DNA of 64,000 nt from Bacilli bacterium (GTDB lineage Bacteria; Bacillota_I; Bacilli_A; RF39; UBA660). Positions 46,424-54,680 of this stretch are shown here, one piece after another. Every line of letters starts with the position of its first letter. Within the stretch, counting starts at the first letter, position 1. Below the pieces are notes generated by a model, which was not told the DNA's origin, did not search any database, and saw only the letters and a program-made list of their open reading frames with translations. The DNA lies in NCBI GenBank assembly GCA_017409785.1, contig JAFQSD010000004.1:48663-112662 (forward strand), written 5' to 3'. The translations under genes and the position numbers were made by a program.

Positions 46424-49354
46424 ATGAACTTTGAAATATTATTAAGTAAATTATTAAGACTGCCACTAAATAAAGCGTTAGATATATATAATGAGTATCT
46501 AAAAAATAATCAAGATAACTTTGCTAATAATTTACGCGCCTCAAACTTACTTATGGAAAAAACACAAACAAGAAAAAGAATTAAAGATGAATGTTTTGAA
46601 ACTGCACTTATGGCTTTGGCTTTCATGTCACAAAAGAAGAACCAATTAGCGGATATGATGCTTGAAGAGACAAAGCCATACCCTATGATTGTTTGGATGG
46701 AAGTAATAGGAGAAATGGATGATGAAGGAATAAAAGGTGTATTAAAAAATTATGCAGATAAATTACCTCCTCCAATAATTGAGACATTAATTTTAAATTT
46801 ATCAGAGTCAAAGCAAGCAGTAGCAATAAATAAGTATAAAAATAGATTGGATTCAAAAAGTGAAATGTTTTATTCATTTTATTTATGTTTATCTAAAGAA
46901 GCACAACAAGAACTTGATAGACTGACTAATAAAGCTGTAAAAGTAAATCCACTACTACAATTGAGTGATCAAGAACCGTCTCAAATAAAAAAAAGCTTAA
47001 TTGTAAATAAAGAATTATATAAAGAGATTCCAATGGATGATATTATTGAAGTTCTTTTATTAAATGTAAATTCATCAGAAGATATTTTTGACATATTAAA
47101 GACTTATGAAGATAGACAAACAGAAATATCTGATATGCGATTTAAATTATTAGTTGGTAGACTAAAAGTATTATTAAATGAAGAAACATATAACCATAGA
47201 TTTGAAAATGCAGAAGAAATATTTAATAAACTAAAATCTCGTTTTAAAAGATTAGGTTTAAAAGACTCACTTGCTATCTTAGATGCCAAAGTAGATGGTT
47301 ATTATTCTTGTGAACATGGTAATGAAATAATTTATGAATTTTTAGATATTGCATATGAAAACGAAAACCTAAGAGACTTTGTAAATGAAAAAACAATCTC
47401 AGCACTGGTTGAAAGATTTGTAAATGATTGCAGAAGTAAAGAATATACAGTTGAAGACTTCCGAAGATTAGTTGAAAAAACTACAACGACTAAGCCTTAT
47501 AAGTTAATAAAAGATGATTATATTGAAGCAATAATTGCCTGTGGTTCATTAATGAAAAACCACATAATATCAGATCAAGATCCTCATTTTTTAGAATTAC
47601 GTAGAAGATTTATTTCTATGCTAAATGATCAAGTAGAAAAAGATGGAACTTTAACAGAAGAAGTTAATTTCAATGGATTATTCTATCGTTTAATAAAAGG
47701 TAGTGTTGATTTTGATAAGGTCTTTAATACTAAAACATATAAAGGCTTAATATATCTAACAAAATCTGGACGAGTATTTAATAATCCAGACTTGATCACA
47801 AAATATTTATCAGACGAGCAAATAAGAAAATTAGATATATCACCAGTTCTACATTTAAAGAAAGAGCTAATTAATGAAGCTAATAGAAAACATAAAGAAG
47901 TAAAGCCTAATAGTGAATTAGATCCTCGCTATGCAGTATCAGATTTTAAAGAAAGAATGATGCTTCAATTACTTTGTTATTTTGGTGAAACTAGAGCAAG
48001 ACATATTATCAAATCAGCTATGAAACCAACTAGAATGGAAAACATTTTTGATAGTCTTAATTACAAAGATATTAAGATTGATGAAAATGGTAAACCAATT
48101 GTAAATCAAGAATTAGTTGATTTCTTATTCGGAAGAGGTAGTGTAGCAGAAAAGAACACAGTTATGAATAGAATAATTCGAGAAGAATTATTAGATTTCG
48201 GAAGATTTGTTCCTGAAATATGTAATAACTACGAAGAGGTAAAAAAAGCTTGTCATGGAATTATAACTGTAAAAAGAGCAATGGCTCATTTTGAAGATAT
48301 AGTTCTTCCTATTGAGTTAAAACCAAATGAACGAGAATTTAAACCGGCATTAAAAGAAATGCGTATTACTAAAGAAGATACTTTAGCCAAGGGAGTTTCC
48401 TTATGTCATGATGCCAAAAAAAGAACATCATCAACTATACCAAAAGTAAAAGGAAAATTAGGAGACTTTACATATGAAATACTAGATGTAAAAGATCCGT
48501 TTGCTTTAGCGGTAGGATACTTATCACATTGTTGTTTTGTTGTTGATGGTATTTCATATTCAGCATTAAAACATTCAATGCAATCTGTAAACGGAAGAAC
48601 ATTTGTTGTTTATCATAAAGGCAAATTTTTAACACAAAGTTGGATGTGGAGAAATGGCGATGTTGTTTGTTTCGACAGTGTTGAATCAGGAAGTAGTATT
48701 CATGGTGCCTACAATGATGATATAAAATTAGTAGATGTCTACAAACATGTCGCGGATGAAATAATGGATATTTCAAAATGTAATGAAACGGATGCAGAAA
48801 GAGTTAAAGTAGTCACAGTAGGGGCATCAGATTATATCTTCAAAGGACTACCACAAGTCGAAGGAAAAGTTCCAAGACCACAAGAAAGAGATGTATATGT
48901 TTACGATTCATCAACGCAAGGAATTCTTGCAGGAGAAATGCCTAAAAAGCCAAATTATGATCCTGTATCAATTAGATACAAAGACCCAAGAAAAAGAGTG
49001 CATAAGTTCTTAAGTATTGAAGAAGCAGATGTTGATGATTTAGATGAAGCATTATTAAAACTACAATCAATTAAATATGAGTCTACTGGTAGTGAAGAAG
49101 TAGAAGATATTACTACAATGAACCAACTATTTGTTGGCCAAGACTGGTATATAAAAACAACAAAAGATGGCACTGTCGAAGTAGAAATATTAGGTGAGGA
49201 AGATGCTTCACTTGAAGAATGTAAACGATATGCTGAACTGTTAGGAATAGAATTTGAAATGGAACACAAAGAATTAAATGATGGTTACCAATTATCAAAA
49301 GACGATGTAGTAAAACAGCTACGAAAGACAAAATTAGAAAGTAGGAGGGGATAA
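46424..49354 (+). CDS. large (976 aa) cytoplasmic protein of unknown function
   Basis: No P-loop or known nuclease motif is visible. The C-terminal third has a Cys/His/Asp-containing segment (..GYLSHCCFVVDG..VVYHKG..RNGDVV..). Strong RBS aaggggga. Confidence 0.5.
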   Translation: MNFEILLSKLLRLPLNKALDIYNEYLKNNQDNFANNLRASNLLMEKTQTRKRIKDECFETALMALAFMSQKKNQLADMMLEETKPYPMIVWMEVIGEMDDEGIKGVLKNYADKLPPPIIETLILNLSESKQAVAINKYKNRLDSKSEMFYSFYLCLSKEAQQELDRLTNKAVKVNPLLQLSDQEPSQIKKSLIVNKELYKEIPMDDIIEVLLLNVNSSEDIFDILKTYEDRQTEISDMRFKLLVGRLKVLLNEETYNHRFENAEEIFNKLKSRFKRLGLKDSLAILDAKVDGYYSCEHGNEIIYEFLDIAYENENLRDFVNEKTISALVERFVNDCRSKEYTVEDFRRLVEKTTTTKPYKLIKDDYIEAIIACGSLMKNHIISDQDPHFLELRRRFISMLNDQVEKDGTLTEEVNFNGLFYRLIKGSVDFDKVFNTKTYKGLIYLTKSGRVFNNPDLITKYLSDEQIRKLDISPVLHLKKELINEANRKHKEVKPNSELDPRYAVSDFKERMMLQLLCYFGETRARHIIKSAMKPTRMENIFDSLNYKDIKIDENGKPIVNQELVDFLFGRGSVAEKNTVMNRIIREELLDFGRFVPEICNNYEEVKKACHGIITVKRAMAHFEDIVLPIELKPNEREFKPALKEMRITKEDTLAKGVSLCHDAKKRTSSTIPKVKGKLGDFTYEILDVKDPFALAVGYLSHCCFVVDGISYSALKHSMQSVNGRTFVVYHKGKFLTQSWMWRNGDVVCFDSVESGSSIHGAYNDDIKLVDVYKHVADEIMDISKCNETDAERVKVVTVGASDYIFKGLPQVEGKVPRPQERDVYVYDSSTQGILAGEMPKKPNYDPVSIRYKDPRKRVHKFLSIEEADVDDLDEALLKLQSIKYESTGSEEVEDITTMNQLFVGQDWYIKTTKDGTVEVEILGEEDASLEECKRYAELLGIEFEMEHKELNDGYQLSKDDVVKQLRKTKLESRRG

Positions 49355-49355
49355 T

Positions 49356-50045
49356 ATGTTAATTGCTGAAAATATAAAACAACATTTAGCAGAAGCAACA
49401 ATATCAGGAAGAAGATATTATGAAGAACATCCTGAATGTCGTATTCATCATGAAGTTGCAGAATTAATCCCTGATGACATAGATGTTGATAATCTAATCA
49501 TTGCTTATAAAATATGTTTAGATAATTATGAAAAACATCAAGGAAACGTTTTACCATTTATTGCAACTATTCCTCAGTATGTTCGTAAAGGTACTACGCA
49601 AGAATTTGCTAAAGAATTTAGAAAAAAATATATTACAGATATTCTTGGACTACCACCACAACCAGAACTAGAAACAGACTATGGCTATGTAGAAACTGAA
49701 CCATATGTAATAGATATTTCTAATAAAAATAAATATGCCGTACTAGCAGCACTATATAACTATTCAACACCTTATGGTATGGGATTTGCTCAATATGATC
49801 CATATGCATGGGATGAAGAAATTGGTAAACTTGCATTTGAAAAATTTGGTGAAGTATTAGCTGACGGTTCTATTTTCTTTGGCTGGGTTCAAGGGCGACT
49901 AATGCGCTGTAAGTTTAAAGATAATTTAGTTTATGTTGAAGCATACAATCGTGAAAACATTGATGGACTAGGTCAATTAGCAGTAAGTTCTGTACCTAAT
50001 CTAAATCAAAAAGAAAAGCCTATTCAAAAAGTAAAAAAAGATTAA
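49356..50045 (+). CDS. hypothetical protein (229 aa)
   Basis: Starts 2 nt after the upstream stop, with RBS aggagggg. Confidence 0.4.
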   Translation: MLIAENIKQHLAEATISGRRYYEEHPECRIHHEVAELIPDDIDVDNLIIAYKICLDNYEKHQGNVLPFIATIPQYVRKGTTQEFAKEFRKKYITDILGLPPQPELETDYGYVETEPYVIDISNKNKYAVLAALYNYSTPYGMGFAQYDPYAWDEEIGKLAFEKFGEVLADGSIFFGWVQGRLMRCKFKDNLVYVEAYNRENIDGLGQLAVSSVPNLNQKEKPIQKVKKD

Positions 50046-50075
50046 TAATATGATATACTAAAAATGGTGAATAAA

Positions 50076-50702
50076 ATGATTAATCAAGACATCAAAAAAT
50101 ATATAGAAAAAAATATCTATCCAGAATATCAAAAAAATGATAGTGGTCATAACATAGACCACATTAAATATGTTTTAGAAAGAAGTTTAAAGTTTGCTAA
50201 AACAGTTCCAGATATTAATCTAGACATGGTATATGTAATTGCAGCATTTCATGATATTGGTCATCATATAGATGCTAAAAACCATGAACAAGTATCTTCA
50301 GAAATACTGGAAAAAGATGAATTCATCAAAGATTATTTTACAAAAGATGAACTTAAAACAATGGTAGAAGCAGTAGTTGATCACAGAGCTAGTTTAGAGT
50401 ATATTCCACGTTCAATTTATGGAAAAATAGTCTCATCAGCAGATAGAAATACTGATATAGATATTCCTCTAAAACGTACATATTCTTATCGTTTAGAGCA
50501 TTTTCCAAATGCTACATTAGATGAAATCATTGAAGAATCACGTCAACATATTATTGATAAGTTTGGTTCAAATGGCTATGCCAAAGATAAAATATATTTT
50601 GAGGATGAAGATTATAATAATTTCTTAAAAGAAGTAGAATTATTCGCAGAAGATAAAGAACTTTTTAGAAAAAGATTTATTGAAGTAAATAATATTAAAT
50701 AA
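50076..50702 (+). CDS. HD-domain phosphohydrolase (YpgQ/YedJ-like small HD protein)
   Basis: H..H...AAFHDIGH...DHR...SSADR motif spacing of the HD superfamily; start taken at the second ATG. Confidence 0.6.
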   Translation: MINQDIKKYIEKNIYPEYQKNDSGHNIDHIKYVLERSLKFAKTVPDINLDMVYVIAAFHDIGHHIDAKNHEQVSSEILEKDEFIKDYFTKDELKTMVEAVVDHRASLEYIPRSIYGKIVSSADRNTDIDIPLKRTYSYRLEHFPNATLDEIIEESRQHIIDKFGSNGYAKDKIYFEDEDYNNFLKEVELFAEDKELFRKRFIEVNNIK

Positions 50703-50718
50703 CAAAGTAGGTGATACA

Positions 50719-51318
50719 ATGTCCAAAATAAGTAATGTCCTAACTTTTATGCAATACTTAAGTACAGGTAAAAAATATAGTATTCAAGAATTATCTGAAA
50801 AATTAGAAGTATCACCACGTATGATTAGAGTCTATAAAGAAGAACTAGAAAAAGCAGGAATTTATGTAGATACAATAATGGGTCCATATGGAGGATATGT
50901 CTTAAATCAATCTATTAGAATGCCTGTTAGAAAATTTAAAAAGAAAGATTATGAACTACTAGAAAAATATATCAGTGAAGAAAAAGATTTAGATAGAAAA
51001 GAAAAATTAATTCTATTAAAAGATAAGATTCAAGGAGTATATGCAGGTAGTAAACAAGAAGCACGTGAGTTAAATCTAAAAGATGAAACTCAAAGTAAAT
51101 ATAATTTACTAACACGTGCCATCAAAGAAAGAAAAAAAGTAAAAATATTATATTATTCTTATAATAAAGGAGAAAATGAAAGAGTCATATGTCCAGCAGA
51201 AATGTTTTTATTTCAAGATGGTTGGTATGTCGCAGCATTCTGTCTTGTAAAGAATGATATCCGTCATTTTGAATTAAAAAGAATAATAAAATATGAATTA
51301 TTAAATGAAACTTTTTAA
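50719..51318 (+). CDS. HTH-WYL domain transcriptional regulator
   Basis: N-terminal HTH (YSIQELSEKLEVSPRMIRVYKEELEKAGI) and C-terminal WYL core (FQDGWYVAAFCLVKNDIRHFELKRI). Confidence 0.6.
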   Translation: MSKISNVLTFMQYLSTGKKYSIQELSEKLEVSPRMIRVYKEELEKAGIYVDTIMGPYGGYVLNQSIRMPVRKFKKKDYELLEKYISEEKDLDRKEKLILLKDKIQGVYAGSKQEARELNLKDETQSKYNLLTRAIKERKKVKILYYSYNKGENERVICPAEMFLFQDGWYVAAFCLVKNDIRHFELKRIIKYELLNETF

Positions 51319-51332
51319 GTAGACTAAATACT

Positions 51333-51376
51333 TCCTACTCAAGTGCTACTATGTACTTGAAAGGAAGTGTTTTTTT
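51333..51376 (+). terminator. compound hairpin terminator
   Basis: acttcc...caagtgctactatgtacttg...ggaagt followed by a T7 run. Confidence 0.45.
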
Positions 51377-52300
51377 ATGAAACCAAACATGCATGATAAT
51401 TTTAAATTACTTGAAGAAAGAGTATTAGACTCTTTAGAAAAAACAGACTTAGAAAGGATTAAATATCATCTAGAAAGAATAAAAACACCAACGATAACAA
51501 CAGGAGTAGGTGGTTCAAGTGTAGCAAGTAATTTTGCAGCTAAAGTACTAAGTACCAAGAATGGTATAATAGCAGAACACCAAGAACCACGTGATATGTT
51601 ATATAAGCCACTACAAGGATATGACAATGTATTAGCTTGTAGTTATGGTGGAAGAAACTATGGAGTAAAAACATCATTTGCCAATGATTTAAATAAGTAC
51701 TTACTATCAAGAAATATATCTGATAATGAAGGAGTAAATAATTTAACTTATGATGCTTCTTTACCGGATGAAGATAGTTTTATCTCATTAGCCGCAACAC
51801 TTATGCCAATGAGTGTAATGCTAGCATATTATAATGATAATGATATTTCAGTAATAAAAGAAATTTTAGAAACAGCAAGAAAATATAATGTTAATATAGA
51901 TAAAGTATATGAAATATTAACTGGCTATGACACATCAACTGCATCAATCTATTTAGATTCAACTTTGGCTGAAGCGGGATTAGCATCACCTGTGGTTCAT
52001 GATAAATATTCAATGTGTCATGGTAGAACAACTCTCTCATACCATCATGACCACTCCTTAATTCATCTAGATAGAGGTACCGAATTAGATAAACTATATA
52101 AAGAGGAACTACCACAATATTACAACGGAGTAATAACTCTTGAGGGTAAGTTTGATGATCCAATAGTGGATGACTTTTATCTAACATATCAAGCAATGCT
52201 TTTATCAAAAGCAATGGCAGAATCTAAGGGTAGAGACCTATCTAGAATGGCATATTCCCCAGCAGTAAAAAAACTATATCGCTATAGTGGCGAAATGTAG
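51377..52300 (+). CDS. SIS-domain-like protein, putative
   Basis: TGVGGSSVASNFAAKVLS resembles the SIS phosphosugar-binding loop (compare GmhA GNGGSAADAQHFAAE). The assignment is weak. Confidence 0.3.
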   Translation: MKPNMHDNFKLLEERVLDSLEKTDLERIKYHLERIKTPTITTGVGGSSVASNFAAKVLSTKNGIIAEHQEPRDMLYKPLQGYDNVLACSYGGRNYGVKTSFANDLNKYLLSRNISDNEGVNNLTYDASLPDEDSFISLAATLMPMSVMLAYYNDNDISVIKEILETARKYNVNIDKVYEILTGYDTSTASIYLDSTLAEAGLASPVVHDKYSMCHGRTTLSYHHDHSLIHLDRGTELDKLYKEELPQYYNGVITLEGKFDDPIVDDFYLTYQAMLLSKAMAESKGRDLSRMAYSPAVKKLYRYSGEM

Positions 52301-52305
52301 TAAAA

Positions 52306-52334
52306 TTGACAATTATACTAAACTATGTTATAAT
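52306..52334 (+). promoter_or_regulatory. consensus sigma-A promoter TTGACA-17-TGtTATAAT
   Basis: Seen directly at 52306-52311 and 52329-52334. Confidence 0.6.
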
Positions 52335-52402
52335 CTAGCCGTAGTAAATCAATTCGACCATTCGCGTTTTACTACCAGACAAACCTAGAGTTTGAAGGAA
52401 TA

Positions 52403-52447
52403 ATGAAGAGCCTTAAGAATCTCCTCATGAATGGCAAAAAACCGTAA
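52403..52447 (+). CDS. candidate leader peptide MKSLKNLLMNGKKP
   Basis: RBS aagga 4 nt upstream; 14 codons; contains the anti-SD-like ctcctc and is followed by hairpin agcaaaa/ttttgct. Confidence 0.3.
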   Translation: MKSLKNLLMNGKKP

Positions 52448-52534
52448 GCAAAATTATGGTTGTTTTTGCTAATTCATGAAAGGAGGTTCTTTTTTTGATA
52501 CAACCAGACAATTATATAAAAAGGAGAGAAGTAT

Positions 52535-54220
52535 ATGAAGTTATTTAAAGAAGTAATAAAAAACAATTTAAAATTAATGATAGTTTATTTTATACTTGGA
52601 ATAACATTTACATTCTTGGGGCTATATGCCACAAATTATTTTCAAGTAATAATTGACTCATTTGGAACAAATGAAATAACACTAGGAATGATAATATTTT
52701 ATGGAATAGTTTTATTAATAAATGCCATCATTGGATACATTGACAACTATCCAGACAGAGTTTTATTTAACAAACTTTATTTAGAATTCAAAAAGCAATC
52801 TATGAAAAAACTAAAGACAATAGATTATCAAGAATATCAAAAAATAGGAACAGGGAGATTATCACAACAAGTAGAAGAGGGTGCAACAGCAGCAAGAGAT
52901 GCAATCTATTTCTTCTGGTTAAAGTTACTAAGGGAACTTTTACCAGGGGCTATTATAAGTTTATTCTTCATAGGTAGAATTGAGTTCAAAGTGTTATTAA
53001 TAGTTTTAATTGGATACATATTTGTAATCATCCTAACAAACATTGTTCTAAAGGTTCTATACAATTTAAAAGAAAAAATAAACATCAATCAAGAGTTATT
53101 AAATAAACATTTAATTCGTGGTTTCATGGAATTAGTAGTTTTTAGAACTAACAAAAAGTATGATGTTGAATTAGAAAAAATAGATCTAGAAATAACTGAC
53201 ATTACTAAAGGAAAAACTAAAATAAAATTAGTTCATGAAATATTTTTCACAGCTTTTGAAATTCTAGTTACAATAATCAAAATAATAATGTTAGTATATG
53301 CAGTTATTTCAAAAAATCTGACAATAGGTGAAATAGTAGTTTTAATAACTCTATTAGGCAAAGCCTATGAACCAATTGCAATATTCAATGTTGAATACAT
53401 AGACTACAAATTAAACATAGTATCATTAAAACGCTATTTAGAATTCTTAGATTTACCAGATGTTTCAAATATGTATGAAGGAAAAACATTAAAAAATATT
53501 TCTGGTAATGTAGTCTTAAATGATGTAACATTTGCCTACAAAGAAAAACAAGTGCTAGAAAATATTAATCTTGAAATAAAAGAAAATTCAACTGTCGCAT
53601 TTGTTGGTGAAACAGGAAGTGGAAAGTCAACAATCATAAAATTAATTGCTGGACTAATAAAACCTCAATCAGGAAATGTATTAATAGATAATAAAGATCT
53701 AACTAAAATAAAATTAGATTCATACTATGATTACTTATCTTATTTATCACAAGATTCACCTATCTTTGACGGAACGCTAAAAGAAAACATTGTTTTTGAC
53801 AAAAATGTATCAGATGAGAAAATAATAGAAGTATTAAAACTTGTTGAATTAGAAAAGTTTTATTCAAAATTAAAAAATGGTTTAGAGACTGAACTAGGAG
53901 AAAAAGGAATCTTAATTTCTGGAGGAGAACGTCAAAGAATAGCTCTTGCGAGACTTTTCTTTGATGATTCAAAAATAATAATTTTAGATGAAGCAACATC
54001 AGCAATGGACAACATAACAGAAGAAAAAGTAATGAATTCAATCATGAAAAAACTAGAAAATAAAACTTTCATCATAATTGCTCATCGACTAAACACAATA
54101 AGGAATGTAGATAAAATCTTTGTTCTAAGAAATGGCTCAATAACTGACACAGGGACATACAAATCATTACAAAAAAATAGTGAATATTTCGAAGAACTAT
54201 CATTGAAAAAAGTAAACTAA
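52535..54220 (+). CDS. ABC exporter, fused permease-ATPase (type I exporter family)
   Basis: 6-TM N-domain, Walker A GETGSGKST, signature LSGGERQRIALAR, Walker B IIILDEATS; 561 aa. Confidence 0.85.
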   Translation: MKLFKEVIKNNLKLMIVYFILGITFTFLGLYATNYFQVIIDSFGTNEITLGMIIFYGIVLLINAIIGYIDNYPDRVLFNKLYLEFKKQSMKKLKTIDYQEYQKIGTGRLSQQVEEGATAARDAIYFFWLKLLRELLPGAIISLFFIGRIEFKVLLIVLIGYIFVIILTNIVLKVLYNLKEKININQELLNKHLIRGFMELVVFRTNKKYDVELEKIDLEITDITKGKTKIKLVHEIFFTAFEILVTIIKIIMLVYAVISKNLTIGEIVVLITLLGKAYEPIAIFNVEYIDYKLNIVSLKRYLEFLDLPDVSNMYEGKTLKNISGNVVLNDVTFAYKEKQVLENINLEIKENSTVAFVGETGSGKSTIIKLIAGLIKPQSGNVLIDNKDLTKIKLDSYYDYLSYLSQDSPIFDGTLKENIVFDKNVSDEKIIEVLKLVELEKFYSKLKNGLETELGEKGILISGGERQRIALARLFFDDSKIIILDEATSAMDNITEEKVMNSIMKKLENKTFIIIAHRLNTIRNVDKIFVLRNGSITDTGTYKSLQKNSEYFEELSLKKVN

Positions 54221-54309
54221 TATGTTACTATTAAATTGCAAGGAAACTTGTACAAAAAAAGGATACATTTGAGTGCCTCAAACGTATTCCTTTCTTGGAA
54301 CATAAGGAT

Positions 54310-54343
54310 GAGTCTAACTTATGTTAGACTCTGTTTTTATTTT
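54310..54343 (+). terminator. rho-independent terminator
   Basis: gagtctaac ttat gttagactc followed by tgtttttatttt. Confidence 0.7.
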
Positions 54344-54382
54344 AGAAGTAATAATATCACAACTAATAATAGAAGGAGTATT

Positions 54383-54463
54383 ATGGAGTATAAAGAACAT
54401 TCTCTTTTACTCATAATAATCACCTCCTTTCTTGAATTTCTCCAAGAAAGAAAACATTCCTAA
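54383..54463 (+). CDS. candidate 26-aa hydrophobic small protein MEYKEHSLLLIIITSFLEFLQERKHS
   Basis: RBS gaaggag 4-5 nt upstream; located after a terminator and before a weak hairpin plus T-run. Confidence 0.25.
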   Translation: MEYKEHSLLLIIITSFLEFLQERKHS

Positions 54464-54680
54464 ATGTATCCGAAAACGTATGTTATCAACCTCAAAATGA
54501 AATGACAAACTGCCAAATATTAAAATTAAGAGAATTATGAATATAGAAAAATCAGTCATATTAGGCTGATTTTTTCTTTCTATAAAAAAACTATCTTTAA
54601 ATAACTAAAATATTAATAAACTAATATTCTAAAATAAACAATTATGATATAATGTAGTCTACTAAGAAAGAGGTGTTCAT

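What the first reader, a model, noticed from the sequence alone, without database searches (positions are those of the whole stretch)
52306..52534. Consensus promoter, 14-codon leader peptide and alternative hairpins ahead of an ABC exporter (BmrB/ermCL-like attenuation candidate)
Seen: a perfect TTGACA-17-TGtTATAAT promoter, then a roughly 200-nt untranslated leader. The leader contains an 8-bp hairpin (gtagtaaa/tttactac, 52341-52375), a mini-ORF MKSLKNLLMNGKKP (52403-52447) with its own RBS, the anti-SD-like sequence CTCCTC inside that ORF, a hairpin agcaaaa/ttttgct right at its stop, a decoy SD (aaaggaggtt plus a T7 run, 52479-52497), and the real SD (aaggagag) of the exporter. Established: expression of some efflux genes, including the B. 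subtilis ABC exporter BmrCD via the BmrB leader peptide, is induced by ribosome stalling on a leader peptide that remodels terminator or anti-SD structures. Inference: this exporter may be induced by a translation-targeting compound.
Basis: partly seen in the sequence, partly recalled or inferred. Interest (0 to 1): 0.55.

Follow-up and report, generated by a model that had tools for sequence, protein, structure and literature searches.

The report
Orphan riboswitch-like attenuator before ABC exporter
The leader in front of this ABC exporter is not a leader-peptide switch: it is one copy of a widespread, apparently uncatalogued structured RNA of gut bacteria that chooses between a terminator and an antiterminator, most likely in response to an unknown small molecule.

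Summary
The "CTCCTC" element and the "decoy SD + T7" are the two arms of a 33-bp intrinsic terminator (52415-52491, U-tract 52490-96).

The mini-ORF is not conserved in 73 distinct homologous leaders. Its ATG lies in all three frames or is absent, and ORF length runs from 2 to 50 codons. The G of its ATG covaries with a pairing partner (GC 44 / AU 28). That ATG is one strand of an antiterminator helix (52403-10 x 52421-28), which shares its 3' strand with the terminator.

The conserved unit is an RNA:
- hairpin P1, with an invariant 19-nt loop;
- the antiterminator helix;
- an invariant CATGAATGGCA block, complementary to the P1 loop (a predicted pseudoknot).

More than 100 copies were found in gut and rumen metagenomes, at 26-55% GC. 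Each copy sits behind a sigma-70 promoter and in front of one of four genes: this exporter family, a small-molecule methyltransferase (the commonest), an ANT(2'')/LnuA-like protein, or a HAM1 NTPase. No Rfam 15 family matches.

Best reading: an ON-type transcriptional riboswitch with an unknown ligand. The terminator/antiterminator alternative is shown. Ligand binding is inferred.

The parts
52306..52334 (+). Sigma-70 promoter TTGACA-17-TGtTATAAT (extended -10). The transcript should start about 6-7 nt downstream, just before P1.
   Evidence: unique in the window, 0 expected. All 57 distinct copies that had enough upstream sequence have a promoter scoring at least 8/12 at the same place, and 52 of 57 have TG-extended -10.
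52341..52375 (+). P1 hairpin: 8-bp stem (52341-48 / 52368-75) and a 19-nt loop TCAATTCGACCATTCGCGT. The consensus YAATTNRNYCATTCGCG is nearly invariant.
   Evidence: 7 of 8 stem pairs show compensatory changes in 73 sequences. The loop is invariant in every leader reached through a protein rather than through the DNA pattern.
52380..52394 (+). P2 hairpin CAAAC-CTAGA-GTTTG. It is variable and dispensable: absent in many copies, longer or doubled in others.
   Evidence: The stems covary by eye (TAAAC/GTTTA, AATAGT/ACTATT, AAGCA/TGCTT). It is missing in the L041-, L108- and L111-type copies.
52395..52414 (+). Small helix AAGG (52395-98) / CCTT (52411-14) enclosing the 5' strand of the antiterminator. 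Together with the antiterminator helix it would form an H-type pseudoknot. It occurs only in the window's sub-class.
   Evidence: AAGG/CCTT 23, GGTT/AACC 3, and G-U variants among the 73 sequences; nothing equivalent in the other sub-classes.
52403..52428 (+). Antiterminator hairpin: ATGAAGAG (52403-10) pairs with CTCCTCAT (52421-28). The loop CCTTAAGAAT carries the conserved RAGAAYC.
   Evidence: All 34 distinct variants keep the helix. Pair counts: col 75-99 GC 44 / AU 28; col 78-96 GC 63 / AU 9. Over P1, this helix and the candidate pseudoknot together, 94% of cells are paired, against 31-47% in the slid controls. RNAalifold predicts the helix independently. Duplex energy of a leader's own strands versus strands from other leaders: -6.1 vs -4.2 kcal/mol, p = 1e-15.
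52403..52447 (+). It is present in the window but is not a conserved coding feature.
   Evidence: frames, presence and length all vary; the start-codon G is a covarying base pair.
52426..52438 (+). Invariant block CATGAATGGCAAA. GAATGG (52429-34) is perfectly complementary to CCATTC (52358-63) in the P1 loop, giving a predicted pseudoknot that would stack on the antiterminator helix.
   Evidence: 100% pairable in 73 sequences; the only change is C-G to U-G, in 12. The block is invariant in leaders found through proteins; L157 differs only in having GGCAGA. There is no covariation, so the pseudoknot is inferred.
52415..52496 (+).
   Evidence: 33 consecutive paired positions. In 76 distinct copies the hairpin dG averages -33.9 kcal/mol (range -23.6 to -41.7) and is followed by a T-run of at least 5. 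The 3' arm covaries with the shared strand: -8.7 vs -7.1 kcal/mol, p = 2e-10.
52500..52506 (+). Post-terminator element ACAACCA, complementary to TGGTTGT (52457-63) in the apical 3' strand of the terminator. Its function is unexplained.
   Evidence: It changes together with the apical stem in other copies. Own versus cross duplex energy: -10.5 vs -7.9 kcal/mol, p = 3e-6.
52521..54220 (+). SD AAGGAGAG (52521-28) and the regulated gene: a 561-aa ABCB-type (type IV) half-transporter exporter, monocistronic.
   Evidence: ABC_tran plus ABC_membrane; the best PDB relatives are ABCB1 and ABCB4. A terminator-like site at 54310-41 follows the stop codon.

Best explanation
The 5' leader of the exporter mRNA is a riboswitch-like ON transcription attenuator.

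How it would work:
1. Transcription starts at the consensus promoter.
2. The nascent RNA folds hairpin P1.
3. Next comes a weak antiterminator hairpin (52403-10 x 52421-28). The P1 loop (CCAUUC) probably also pairs with GAAUGG (52429-34). Together these tie up the strand CUCCUCAUGAAUGG.
4. That same strand is the 5' arm of a 33-bp terminator whose 3' arm is made about 40 nt later.
5. If a ligand (unknown, probably a small toxic molecule) locks the upstream fold, the 3' arm cannot displace it. RNA polymerase then passes the U7 tract and the exporter is made.
6. Otherwise the terminator forms and transcription stops at about 52496.

Shown: the promoter, P1, the two mutually exclusive helices that share one strand, the terminator, and the association with a small set of detoxification-type genes.
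Inferred: the pseudoknot, direct ligand binding, the ON polarity, and the nature of the ligand.
For: 1. Conservation with the gene. All 7 exporter orthologues at 58-86% identity from a protein-based genome scan carry the leader, in different neighbourhoods. So do about 110 metagenome loci and all 6 methyltransferase loci with enough upstream DNA that were reached through proteins.
2. Covariation. P1 has 7 of 8 pairs with compensatory changes. The antiterminator helix has GC 44 / AU 28 and GC 63 / AU 9. Overall, 94.3% of cells are paired against 85.4% in shuffles (0 of 500 reach it), and 31-47% when partners are slid. RNAalifold finds both helices unaided.
3. A shared strand. The same pyrimidine strand covaries with the antiterminator 5' strand (p = 1e-15) and with the terminator 3' arm (p = 2e-10).
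4. Energetics. The terminator hairpin averages -33.9 kcal/mol and is followed by a T-run of at least 5 in all 76 distinct copies. The upstream fold is weak on its own (-2.4 kcal/mol for the helix; aptamer region z = -0.07). It therefore needs a stabilising factor.
5. Invariant unpaired nucleotides. The P1 loop and CATGAATGGCA stay invariant from 26% to 55% GC, as expected of a binding core.
6. Several non-homologous downstream genes: a small-molecule-type SAM methyltransferase (52 of about 85 distinct contexts with a called first gene), this ABC exporter (20), an ANT(2'')/LnuA-like protein, and HAM1. Most are single genes.
7. Architecture. [quoted passage not shown]
Against: No ligand is known and no binding was tested. 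The pseudoknot rests on complementarity of two invariant segments, with no covariation; in the metagenome set both segments were also fixed by my search pattern. A trans-acting protein or RNA that binds the invariant loop would produce the same comparative signature. The sequences are related, so shuffle statistics overstate independence; the slid controls and the GC-rich lineage mitigate this. The literature and Rfam searches cannot prove that the motif has never been described.
Confidence: 0.6

Rival explanations
1. Factor-dependent antitermination. The RNA switch is the same, but the upstream fold is stabilised by a trans-acting RNA-binding protein (in the manner of LicT, HutP, PyrR or ANTAR regulators) or by another RNA that recognises the invariant P1 loop (two AUUCG repeats) and GAAUGGCA, rather than by a small molecule directly.
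For: The invariant single-stranded loop contains a direct repeat, AUUCG-N4-AUUCG, which could be a protein site. The comparative data do not distinguish a protein from a small ligand.
Against: No conserved regulator gene accompanies the motif. Neighbourhoods differ between copies and most regulated genes stand alone. The motif spans Bacilli-like and Clostridia-like MAGs at 26-55% GC with an unchanged core, so the factor would have to be equally conserved. The WYL-HTH gene upstream in the window is absent from most other contexts.
Confidence: 0.2
2. Ribosome-mediated attenuation. A ribosome translating or stalling on the mini-ORF 52403-52447 covers the 5' arm of the terminator and lets polymerase read through, with stalling induced by a ribosome-targeting drug.
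For: In the window the ORF exists and overlaps the terminator's 5' arm. More distant exporter homologues (L008-L011) do have a different leader with a conserved short ORF. One regulated gene family resembles antibiotic nucleotidyltransferases (PF10706 in a homologue at 58% identity).
Against: The ORF is not conserved. It occurs in all three frames, 7 of 73 leaders have no ATG, lengths run from 2 to 50 codons, and MKSL* truncations occur even inside the window's sub-class. The start-codon G is a covarying base pair and is A in 28 of 73. The SD-like AAGGA is 3 nt from the ATG, is itself a helix strand, and is missing in other sub-classes. The high-GC copies keep the RNA core but encode an unrelated MTDAKSSA*.
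Confidence: 0.03
3. Ligand-independent attenuator. The leader sets a fixed or globally modulated read-through level (temperature, transcription speed or NTP pools, RNase processing) without sensing a specific compound.
For: The antiterminator is thermodynamically weak and the terminator very strong, so the outcome is kinetic and could depend on polymerase speed. The long perfect duplex and the post-terminator element hint at processing.
Against: A passive attenuator would not need about 30 invariant unpaired nucleotides held constant across distant lineages. Nor would it associate selectively with a handful of detoxification-type gene families.
Confidence: 0.1

Closest known systems
ON-type transcriptional riboswitches that control exporters and detoxification genes (guanidine-I/ykkC, fluoride/crcB, ZTP/pfl)
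   Same: A promoter-proximal aptamer whose fold includes the 5' side of an intrinsic terminator stem. A pseudoknot to a hairpin loop. Several non-homologous downstream genes that include efflux pumps. Invariant unpaired core nucleotides.
   Different: No sequence or structure match to any Rfam 15 model. The ligand is unknown. The terminator is unusually long (about 33 bp), and there is an extra post-terminator complementary element.
Guanidine-IV (mepA motif) and its orphan variant Gd4v (PMC7736828, PMC9788692)
   Same: A hairpin whose loop forms a pseudoknot with the terminator region. ON logic. Like this motif, Gd4v is an orphan found mostly in gut metagenomes and sits upstream of transporter and transferase genes.
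   Different: [quoted passage not shown] Here the upstream fold competes with the terminator stem. The gene sets differ (SugE, MATE, GNAT and transaminase there; class I methyltransferase, ABCB exporter, NTase-like and HAM1 here). There is no Rfam hit.
BmrB-bmrCD leader-peptide transcription attenuation (B. subtilis), and ErmCL/ermC
   Same: A strong promoter, a roughly 200-nt leader and an intrinsic terminator ahead of an ABC exporter; expression is gated by alternative RNA structures.
   Different: Those systems require a conserved translated leader peptide, which is not conserved here. ermC acts on translation by SD sequestration, whereas this element acts on transcription termination. (How those systems work is from my own knowledge; it was not re-read here.)

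Membership tests
Leader-peptide (ribosome-stalling) attenuators, BmrB/ErmCL type | A short ORF with SD and start codon, conserved in position and frame among orthologous leaders | tested here: not met
   all three frames are used, 7 of 73 leaders have no ATG, and lengths run from 2 to 50 codons. L003 and L007 are frame-shifted and L005 lacks an ATG.
Leader-peptide (ribosome-stalling) attenuators, BmrB/ErmCL type | A conserved peptide (stalling) motif under amino-acid-level selection | tested here: not met
   The peptides are MKSLKNLLMNGK.., MLRTFFYEWQ.., MTDAKSSA, ML and MK. Conservation follows the nucleotides and the base pairs.
Leader-peptide (ribosome-stalling) attenuators, BmrB/ErmCL type | Induction by ribosome-targeting antibiotics | not testable with these tools
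   This needs reporter or transcript assays.
Riboswitch (generic definition) | A conserved structured domain in the 5' UTR, supported by covariation | tested here: met
   P1 and the antiterminator helix. CM scores are 66-109 bits in every copy.
Riboswitch (generic definition) | An expression platform mutually exclusive with the sensor fold (terminator versus antiterminator sharing a strand) | tested here: met
   (three-way covariation of the shared strand).
Riboswitch (generic definition) | The same RNA upstream of several non-homologous but functionally related genes in different lineages | tested here: met
   Methyltransferase, ABC exporter, NTase-like protein and HAM1; Bacilli- and Clostridia-annotated MAGs at 26-55% GC.
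Riboswitch (generic definition) | Direct, specific binding of a small-molecule or ion ligand without protein | not testable with these tools
Any described RNA family in Rfam 15 (including ykkC, mepA/guanidine-IV, crcB, pfl, yjdF, T-box) | A covariance-model match | tested here: not met
   At E <= 10 in the window region the only hits are chance matches of the long hairpin to miRNA models. Nothing was found in 11 + 6 related loci, including GC-rich and minimal variants.
Rho-independent (intrinsic) terminator | A stable hairpin immediately followed by a U-tract, upstream of the regulated ORF | tested here: met
   Window stem 52415-52491 plus T7. All 76 distinct copies: mean dG -33.9 kcal/mol and a T-run of at least 5. 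The simple scanner missed it because it only accepts stems whose apical loop is 3-8 nt and counts at most 20 pairs.

The most novel reading that the evidence does not exclude
This is a new riboswitch class whose ligand is a xenobiotic or toxic metabolite met in the gut. It could be a non-canonical purine or base analogue (suggested by HAM1, Nudix, YjjX and NDT genes under or near the motif) or an antibiotic-like compound (suggested by the ANT(2'')/LnuA-like gene and the ABCB exporter). It would directly switch on a dispersed 'methylate, modify, export' resistance regulon in uncultured Bacillota.
Probability: 0.15. Interest if true: 0.85.

Novelty: new variant of a known kind. Interest (0 to 1): 0.62.

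Why it matters
If the reading holds, this is an orphan riboswitch class abundant in human and ruminant gut bacteria, and it marks a small regulon of unknown function: a small-molecule methyltransferase, an ABCB exporter, an NTase-like enzyme and HAM1. Orphan riboswitches have repeatedly exposed unrecognised metabolites and toxicity responses (guanidine, fluoride, ZTP; see PMC7266159, listed). Identifying this ligand would give functions to a methyltransferase family with more than 1000 homologues in the 90%-identity protein-cluster database and to the exporter in this window. It is also a warning about method. A plausible 14-codon 'leader peptide' with an RBS, an anti-SD and a decoy SD was produced entirely by the strands of RNA helices.

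Tried and rejected
- Rfam scans of the window and of 17 related loci found no family.
- A viral-contig scan for the motif gave 0 hits.
- A mutual-information scan of alignment A1 for extra tertiary pairs returned only the known helices plus sub-class (phylogenetic) signal.
- A kissing interaction between the first AUUC of the P1 loop and GAAU in the antiterminator loop was rejected. Neither segment is conserved as such (AATTCG/AATTAG/AATTGG; GAATC/GAACC/AAATC) and they do not covary.
- The SD-likeness of the terminator's 3' arm as a functional decoy SD was rejected as a general feature. The high-GC copies have GCCGGAAGA instead.
- Looking for variation in the invariant blocks through leaders reached by protein gave only GGCAAA to GGCAGA in L157, so there is no test of the pseudoknot.
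- The 50-57% homologues of the NTase-like protein have no room for a leader.
- Sequence searches of PDB for the methyltransferase and the 155-aa protein were uninformative.
- Full-text searches for the conserved sequence strings and for motif descriptions found nothing relevant. The smtA, trpB and livJ motifs of PMC11109978 and Gd4v are different RNAs.
- The PADLOC scan of the five upstream genes returned only a WYL hit. That cluster is not linked to the leader.

Full report
**Observation.**
- TTGACA (52306-11), a 17-nt spacer and TGtTATAAT (52326-34) form the only 12/12 promoter match in the 6 kb scanned. It is also the only match to the extended pattern in the whole window, where none is expected by chance.
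- The hairpin GTAGTAAA/TTTACTAC (52341-48/52368-75), the ORF 52403-52447 (MKSLKNLLMNGKKP), CTCCTC (52421-26), the SD AAGGAGAG (52521-28) and the exporter ORF 52535-54220 were all verified.
- The exporter is a 561-aa fused TMD-NBD ABCB-type half-transporter. A terminator-like site follows it at 54310-41, so it stands alone.

- Folding the leader gives an uninterrupted long hairpin: 52415-52447 pairs with 52454-52491, directly followed by T7 at 52490-96. The whole-leader MFE is -50.6 kcal/mol with z = -4.3.
- The 'anti-SD-like CTCCTC' and the 'decoy SD aaaggaggtt + T7' are therefore the two arms and the U-tract of an intrinsic terminator.
- The 'agcaaaa/ttttgct' hairpin is a mis-registered reading of the terminator's apical part.

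**Related sequences.**
- A protein-based scan of one genome per species found 35 loci that encode relatives of the exporter.
- All seven orthologues at 58-86% identity (L002-L007, L014) carry the same leader behind their own sigma-70 promoter. Five of them have unrelated upstream genes.
- Homologues at 49% identity or less do not carry it.
It returned 120 loci, of which about 110 are true copies and the rest are obvious chance hits. The copies come mostly from human-gut and ruminant samples.
- One lineage has 51-55% GC against 26-40% for the others, yet keeps the same core.
- Leaders reached through proteins, and so unbiased by the pattern, all carry the motif when there is room for it. Six methyltransferase loci do, as does one NTase-like locus, L157, which differs only by GGCAGA.
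- The window has a single copy (105 bits).

**Structure.** Alignment A1 holds 73 distinct sequences from P1 to GGCAAA.
- P1 is supported by compensatory changes at 7 of 8 pairs.
- A second helix pairs ATGAAGAG (52403-10) with CTCCTCAT (52421-28).
  - All 34 distinct variants keep it: ATAAAGAA/TTCTTTAT, ATAGAGAA/TTCTCTAT, ATG-CGGA/TCCGCAT, GTGACG/CGTCAT and so on.
  - Pair counts are GC 44 / AU 28 and GC 63 / AU 9.
  - For the whole tested structure, 94.3% of cells are paired, against 85.4% in shuffles (0 of 500 reach it) and 31-47% when partners are slid.
  - RNAalifold predicts both helices unaided.
- The 3' strand of this helix is also the 5' arm of the terminator, and it covaries with both partners. 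Own-versus-cross duplex energies are -6.1 vs -4.2 kcal/mol (p = 1e-15) for the upstream partner and -8.7 vs -7.1 kcal/mol (p = 2e-10) for the terminator 3' arm. This is the signature of an antiterminator/terminator switch.
- In 76 distinct copies the terminator hairpin averages -33.9 kcal/mol and is followed by a T-run of at least 5.
- The antiterminator alone is worth only -2 to -8 kcal/mol. The window's upstream domain folds no better than shuffled sequence (z = -0.07). Something must therefore stabilise it.
- The P1 loop (YAATTNRNYCATTCGCG) and CATGAATGGCA are invariant. CCATTC (52358-63) is the exact complement of GAATGG (52429-34), which directly follows the antiterminator strand.
  - A pseudoknot here would stack on the antiterminator and sequester 14 consecutive terminator nucleotides.
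  - It is 100% pairable; the only change is C-G to U-G in 12 sequences. With no covariation available, it remains a prediction.
- P2 (52380-94) is optional.
- A 4-bp helix AAGG/CCTT (52395-98/52411-14) is confined to the window's sub-class.

**The leader peptide.**
- Relative to the invariant block, upstream ATGs occupy all three frames. Seven of the 73 leaders have none.
- ORFs run from 2 to 50 codons (ML*, MK*, MKSL*, MTDAKSSA*, MLRTFFYEWQ..). Stop positions bear no fixed relation to the hairpins.
- The G of the window's ATG is a base-paired position that becomes A exactly when its partner C becomes U.
- The 'RBS' AAGGA lies 3 nt from the ATG and is itself a helix strand.

**Genes under the motif.** In about 97 distinct contexts the first downstream gene is one of the following:
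- a roughly 254-aa class I SAM methyltransferase: 52 contexts;
- this exporter family: 20 contexts;
- a 155-aa protein in the GC-rich lineage;
- in one case, a HAM1/RdgB XTP/dITP diphosphatase.

An AlphaFold model of the methyltransferase (pLDDT 80) is closest to small-molecule methyltransferases (BioC, JHAMT, phosphoethanolamine N-MT, the thiol S-MTs TmtA and GtmA, Tam), not to rRNA methyltransferases. The 155-aa protein has no Pfam hit itself. A homologue at 58% identity carries PF10706, the ANT(2'')/LnuA-type nucleotidyltransferase family.

Roughly 12 of 285 neighbouring protein clusters are nucleotide house-cleaning enzymes (Nudix, HAM1, YjjX-like, a nucleoside deoxyribosyltransferase). 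By my rough estimate from general knowledge this is several-fold above background. It is suggestive only.

**Mechanism.** The most likely reading is an ON-type transcriptional riboswitch.
- A ligand stabilises the fold made of P1, the pseudoknot and the antiterminator. This withholds the terminator's 5' arm, and polymerase reads through into a detoxification or export gene.
- I put 0.6 on direct small-molecule sensing, 0.2 on a trans-acting protein or RNA using the same switch, 0.1 on a ligand-independent attenuator and 0.03 on the leader-peptide model.
- The structural switch itself I regard as established (about 0.95).

**Comparison with known systems.**
- No Rfam 15 model matches the window or any of 17 related loci, including GC-rich and minimal variants.
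- Full-text searches for the conserved strings and for descriptions of such a motif found nothing.
- The closest published things are architectural analogues:
  - guanidine-I, fluoride and ZTP ON switches;
  - guanidine-IV and its gut-enriched orphan variant Gd4v (PMC7736828, PMC9788692). These differ in sequence, in gene set, and in using the terminator stem as part of the bound structure.
- I therefore file it as a new class within the known kind 'terminator-controlling riboswitch-like leaders'. The caveat is that unsearched literature may hold a description.

**Unexplained.** A 6-9 nt element just after the U-tract (window ACAACCA, 52500-06) is complementary to the apical 3' strand of the terminator (52457-63) and changes with it in other copies. 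It is made after the termination decision, so it cannot be the antiterminator. It may keep the 33-bp duplex from re-forming in read-through mRNA.

Noticed in passing
L008:2830-3000, L009:2850-3000, L010:2860-3000, L011:2850-3000 (alignment A2): Exporter homologues at 42-49% identity (Lachnospiraceae, Clostridium, Eisenbergiella) carry a different conserved leader: CTCAGTACAG..CTGTYAG..GATTGTRCTGAGG, then GCTRRCAG..CTGTAC plus a short T-run. It has two mutually exclusive hairpins, and all four contain a short ORF reading ..SVQ(L/P).. in frame, preceded by RG-x-x in three of them. No Rfam hit. This leader, not the window's, looks like a leader-peptide attenuator.
   Followed up: partly
window 52500-52506 (with 52457-52463): A post-terminator element is complementary to the apical 3' strand of the terminator and covaries with it across copies (own vs cross duplex energy -10.5 vs -7.9 kcal/mol, p = 3e-6). 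Its function is unknown.
   Followed up: partly
L064:6356-7029: A second, truncated copy of the motif. The promoter and aptamer are duplicated up to CATGAATG; the rest of the block and the terminator are missing. It is fused in front of a 157-aa gene that looks like a nucleoside 2-deoxyribosyltransferase. It appears to be a recombination remnant that would give unregulated expression.
   Followed up: partly
window 46424-52300: Five co-directional genes lie upstream of the promoter: 976 aa, 229 aa, an HD-domain protein (212 aa), a WYL-HTH regulator (199 aa; PADLOC WYL 1e-30) and 307 aa. Three have no family match. The 307-aa gene also precedes the exporter in L002 and L006. This may be a defence or signalling island, unrelated to the leader.
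   Followed up: partly
window 52495-52548; L050, L052, L090 and related loci: A TTG inside the terminator U-tract, 5-6 nt after the SD-like 3' arm GGAGGTTC, opens an ORF. In the methyltransferase sub-class it is in frame and would add 14 residues (MYIQPNIKIKEKIK-). In the window it is out of frame (17 codons) and overlaps the exporter start. It could be a coupling uORF exposed only in read-through RNA, or chance.
   Followed up: no
L039, L064, L072, L090, L108, L132, L136, L141, L146 (within 5-6 kb of the motif): Nudix hydrolases, HAM1, a YjjX-like NTPase and a nucleoside deoxyribosyltransferase recur near motif copies, about 12 of 285 neighbour protein clusters. This hints that the ligand may be a non-canonical purine or nucleoside.
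   Followed up: partly
window 54236-54463 and 54263-54575: The 75-aa TTG ORF after the exporter has no family match and contains a terminator-like hairpin (54310-31), so it is probably not a gene. Several terminator-like sites on both strands cluster at 54263-54575, between the exporter and the next gene (DHH-family, 54681).
   Followed up: no
L003:4737-5115; L004:729-918: A tmRNA gene lies directly downstream of the exporter orthologue in L003, and a T-box leader lies about 2 kb upstream of it in L004. This shows that the exporter and its leader move as a unit between unrelated neighbourhoods.
   Followed up: no
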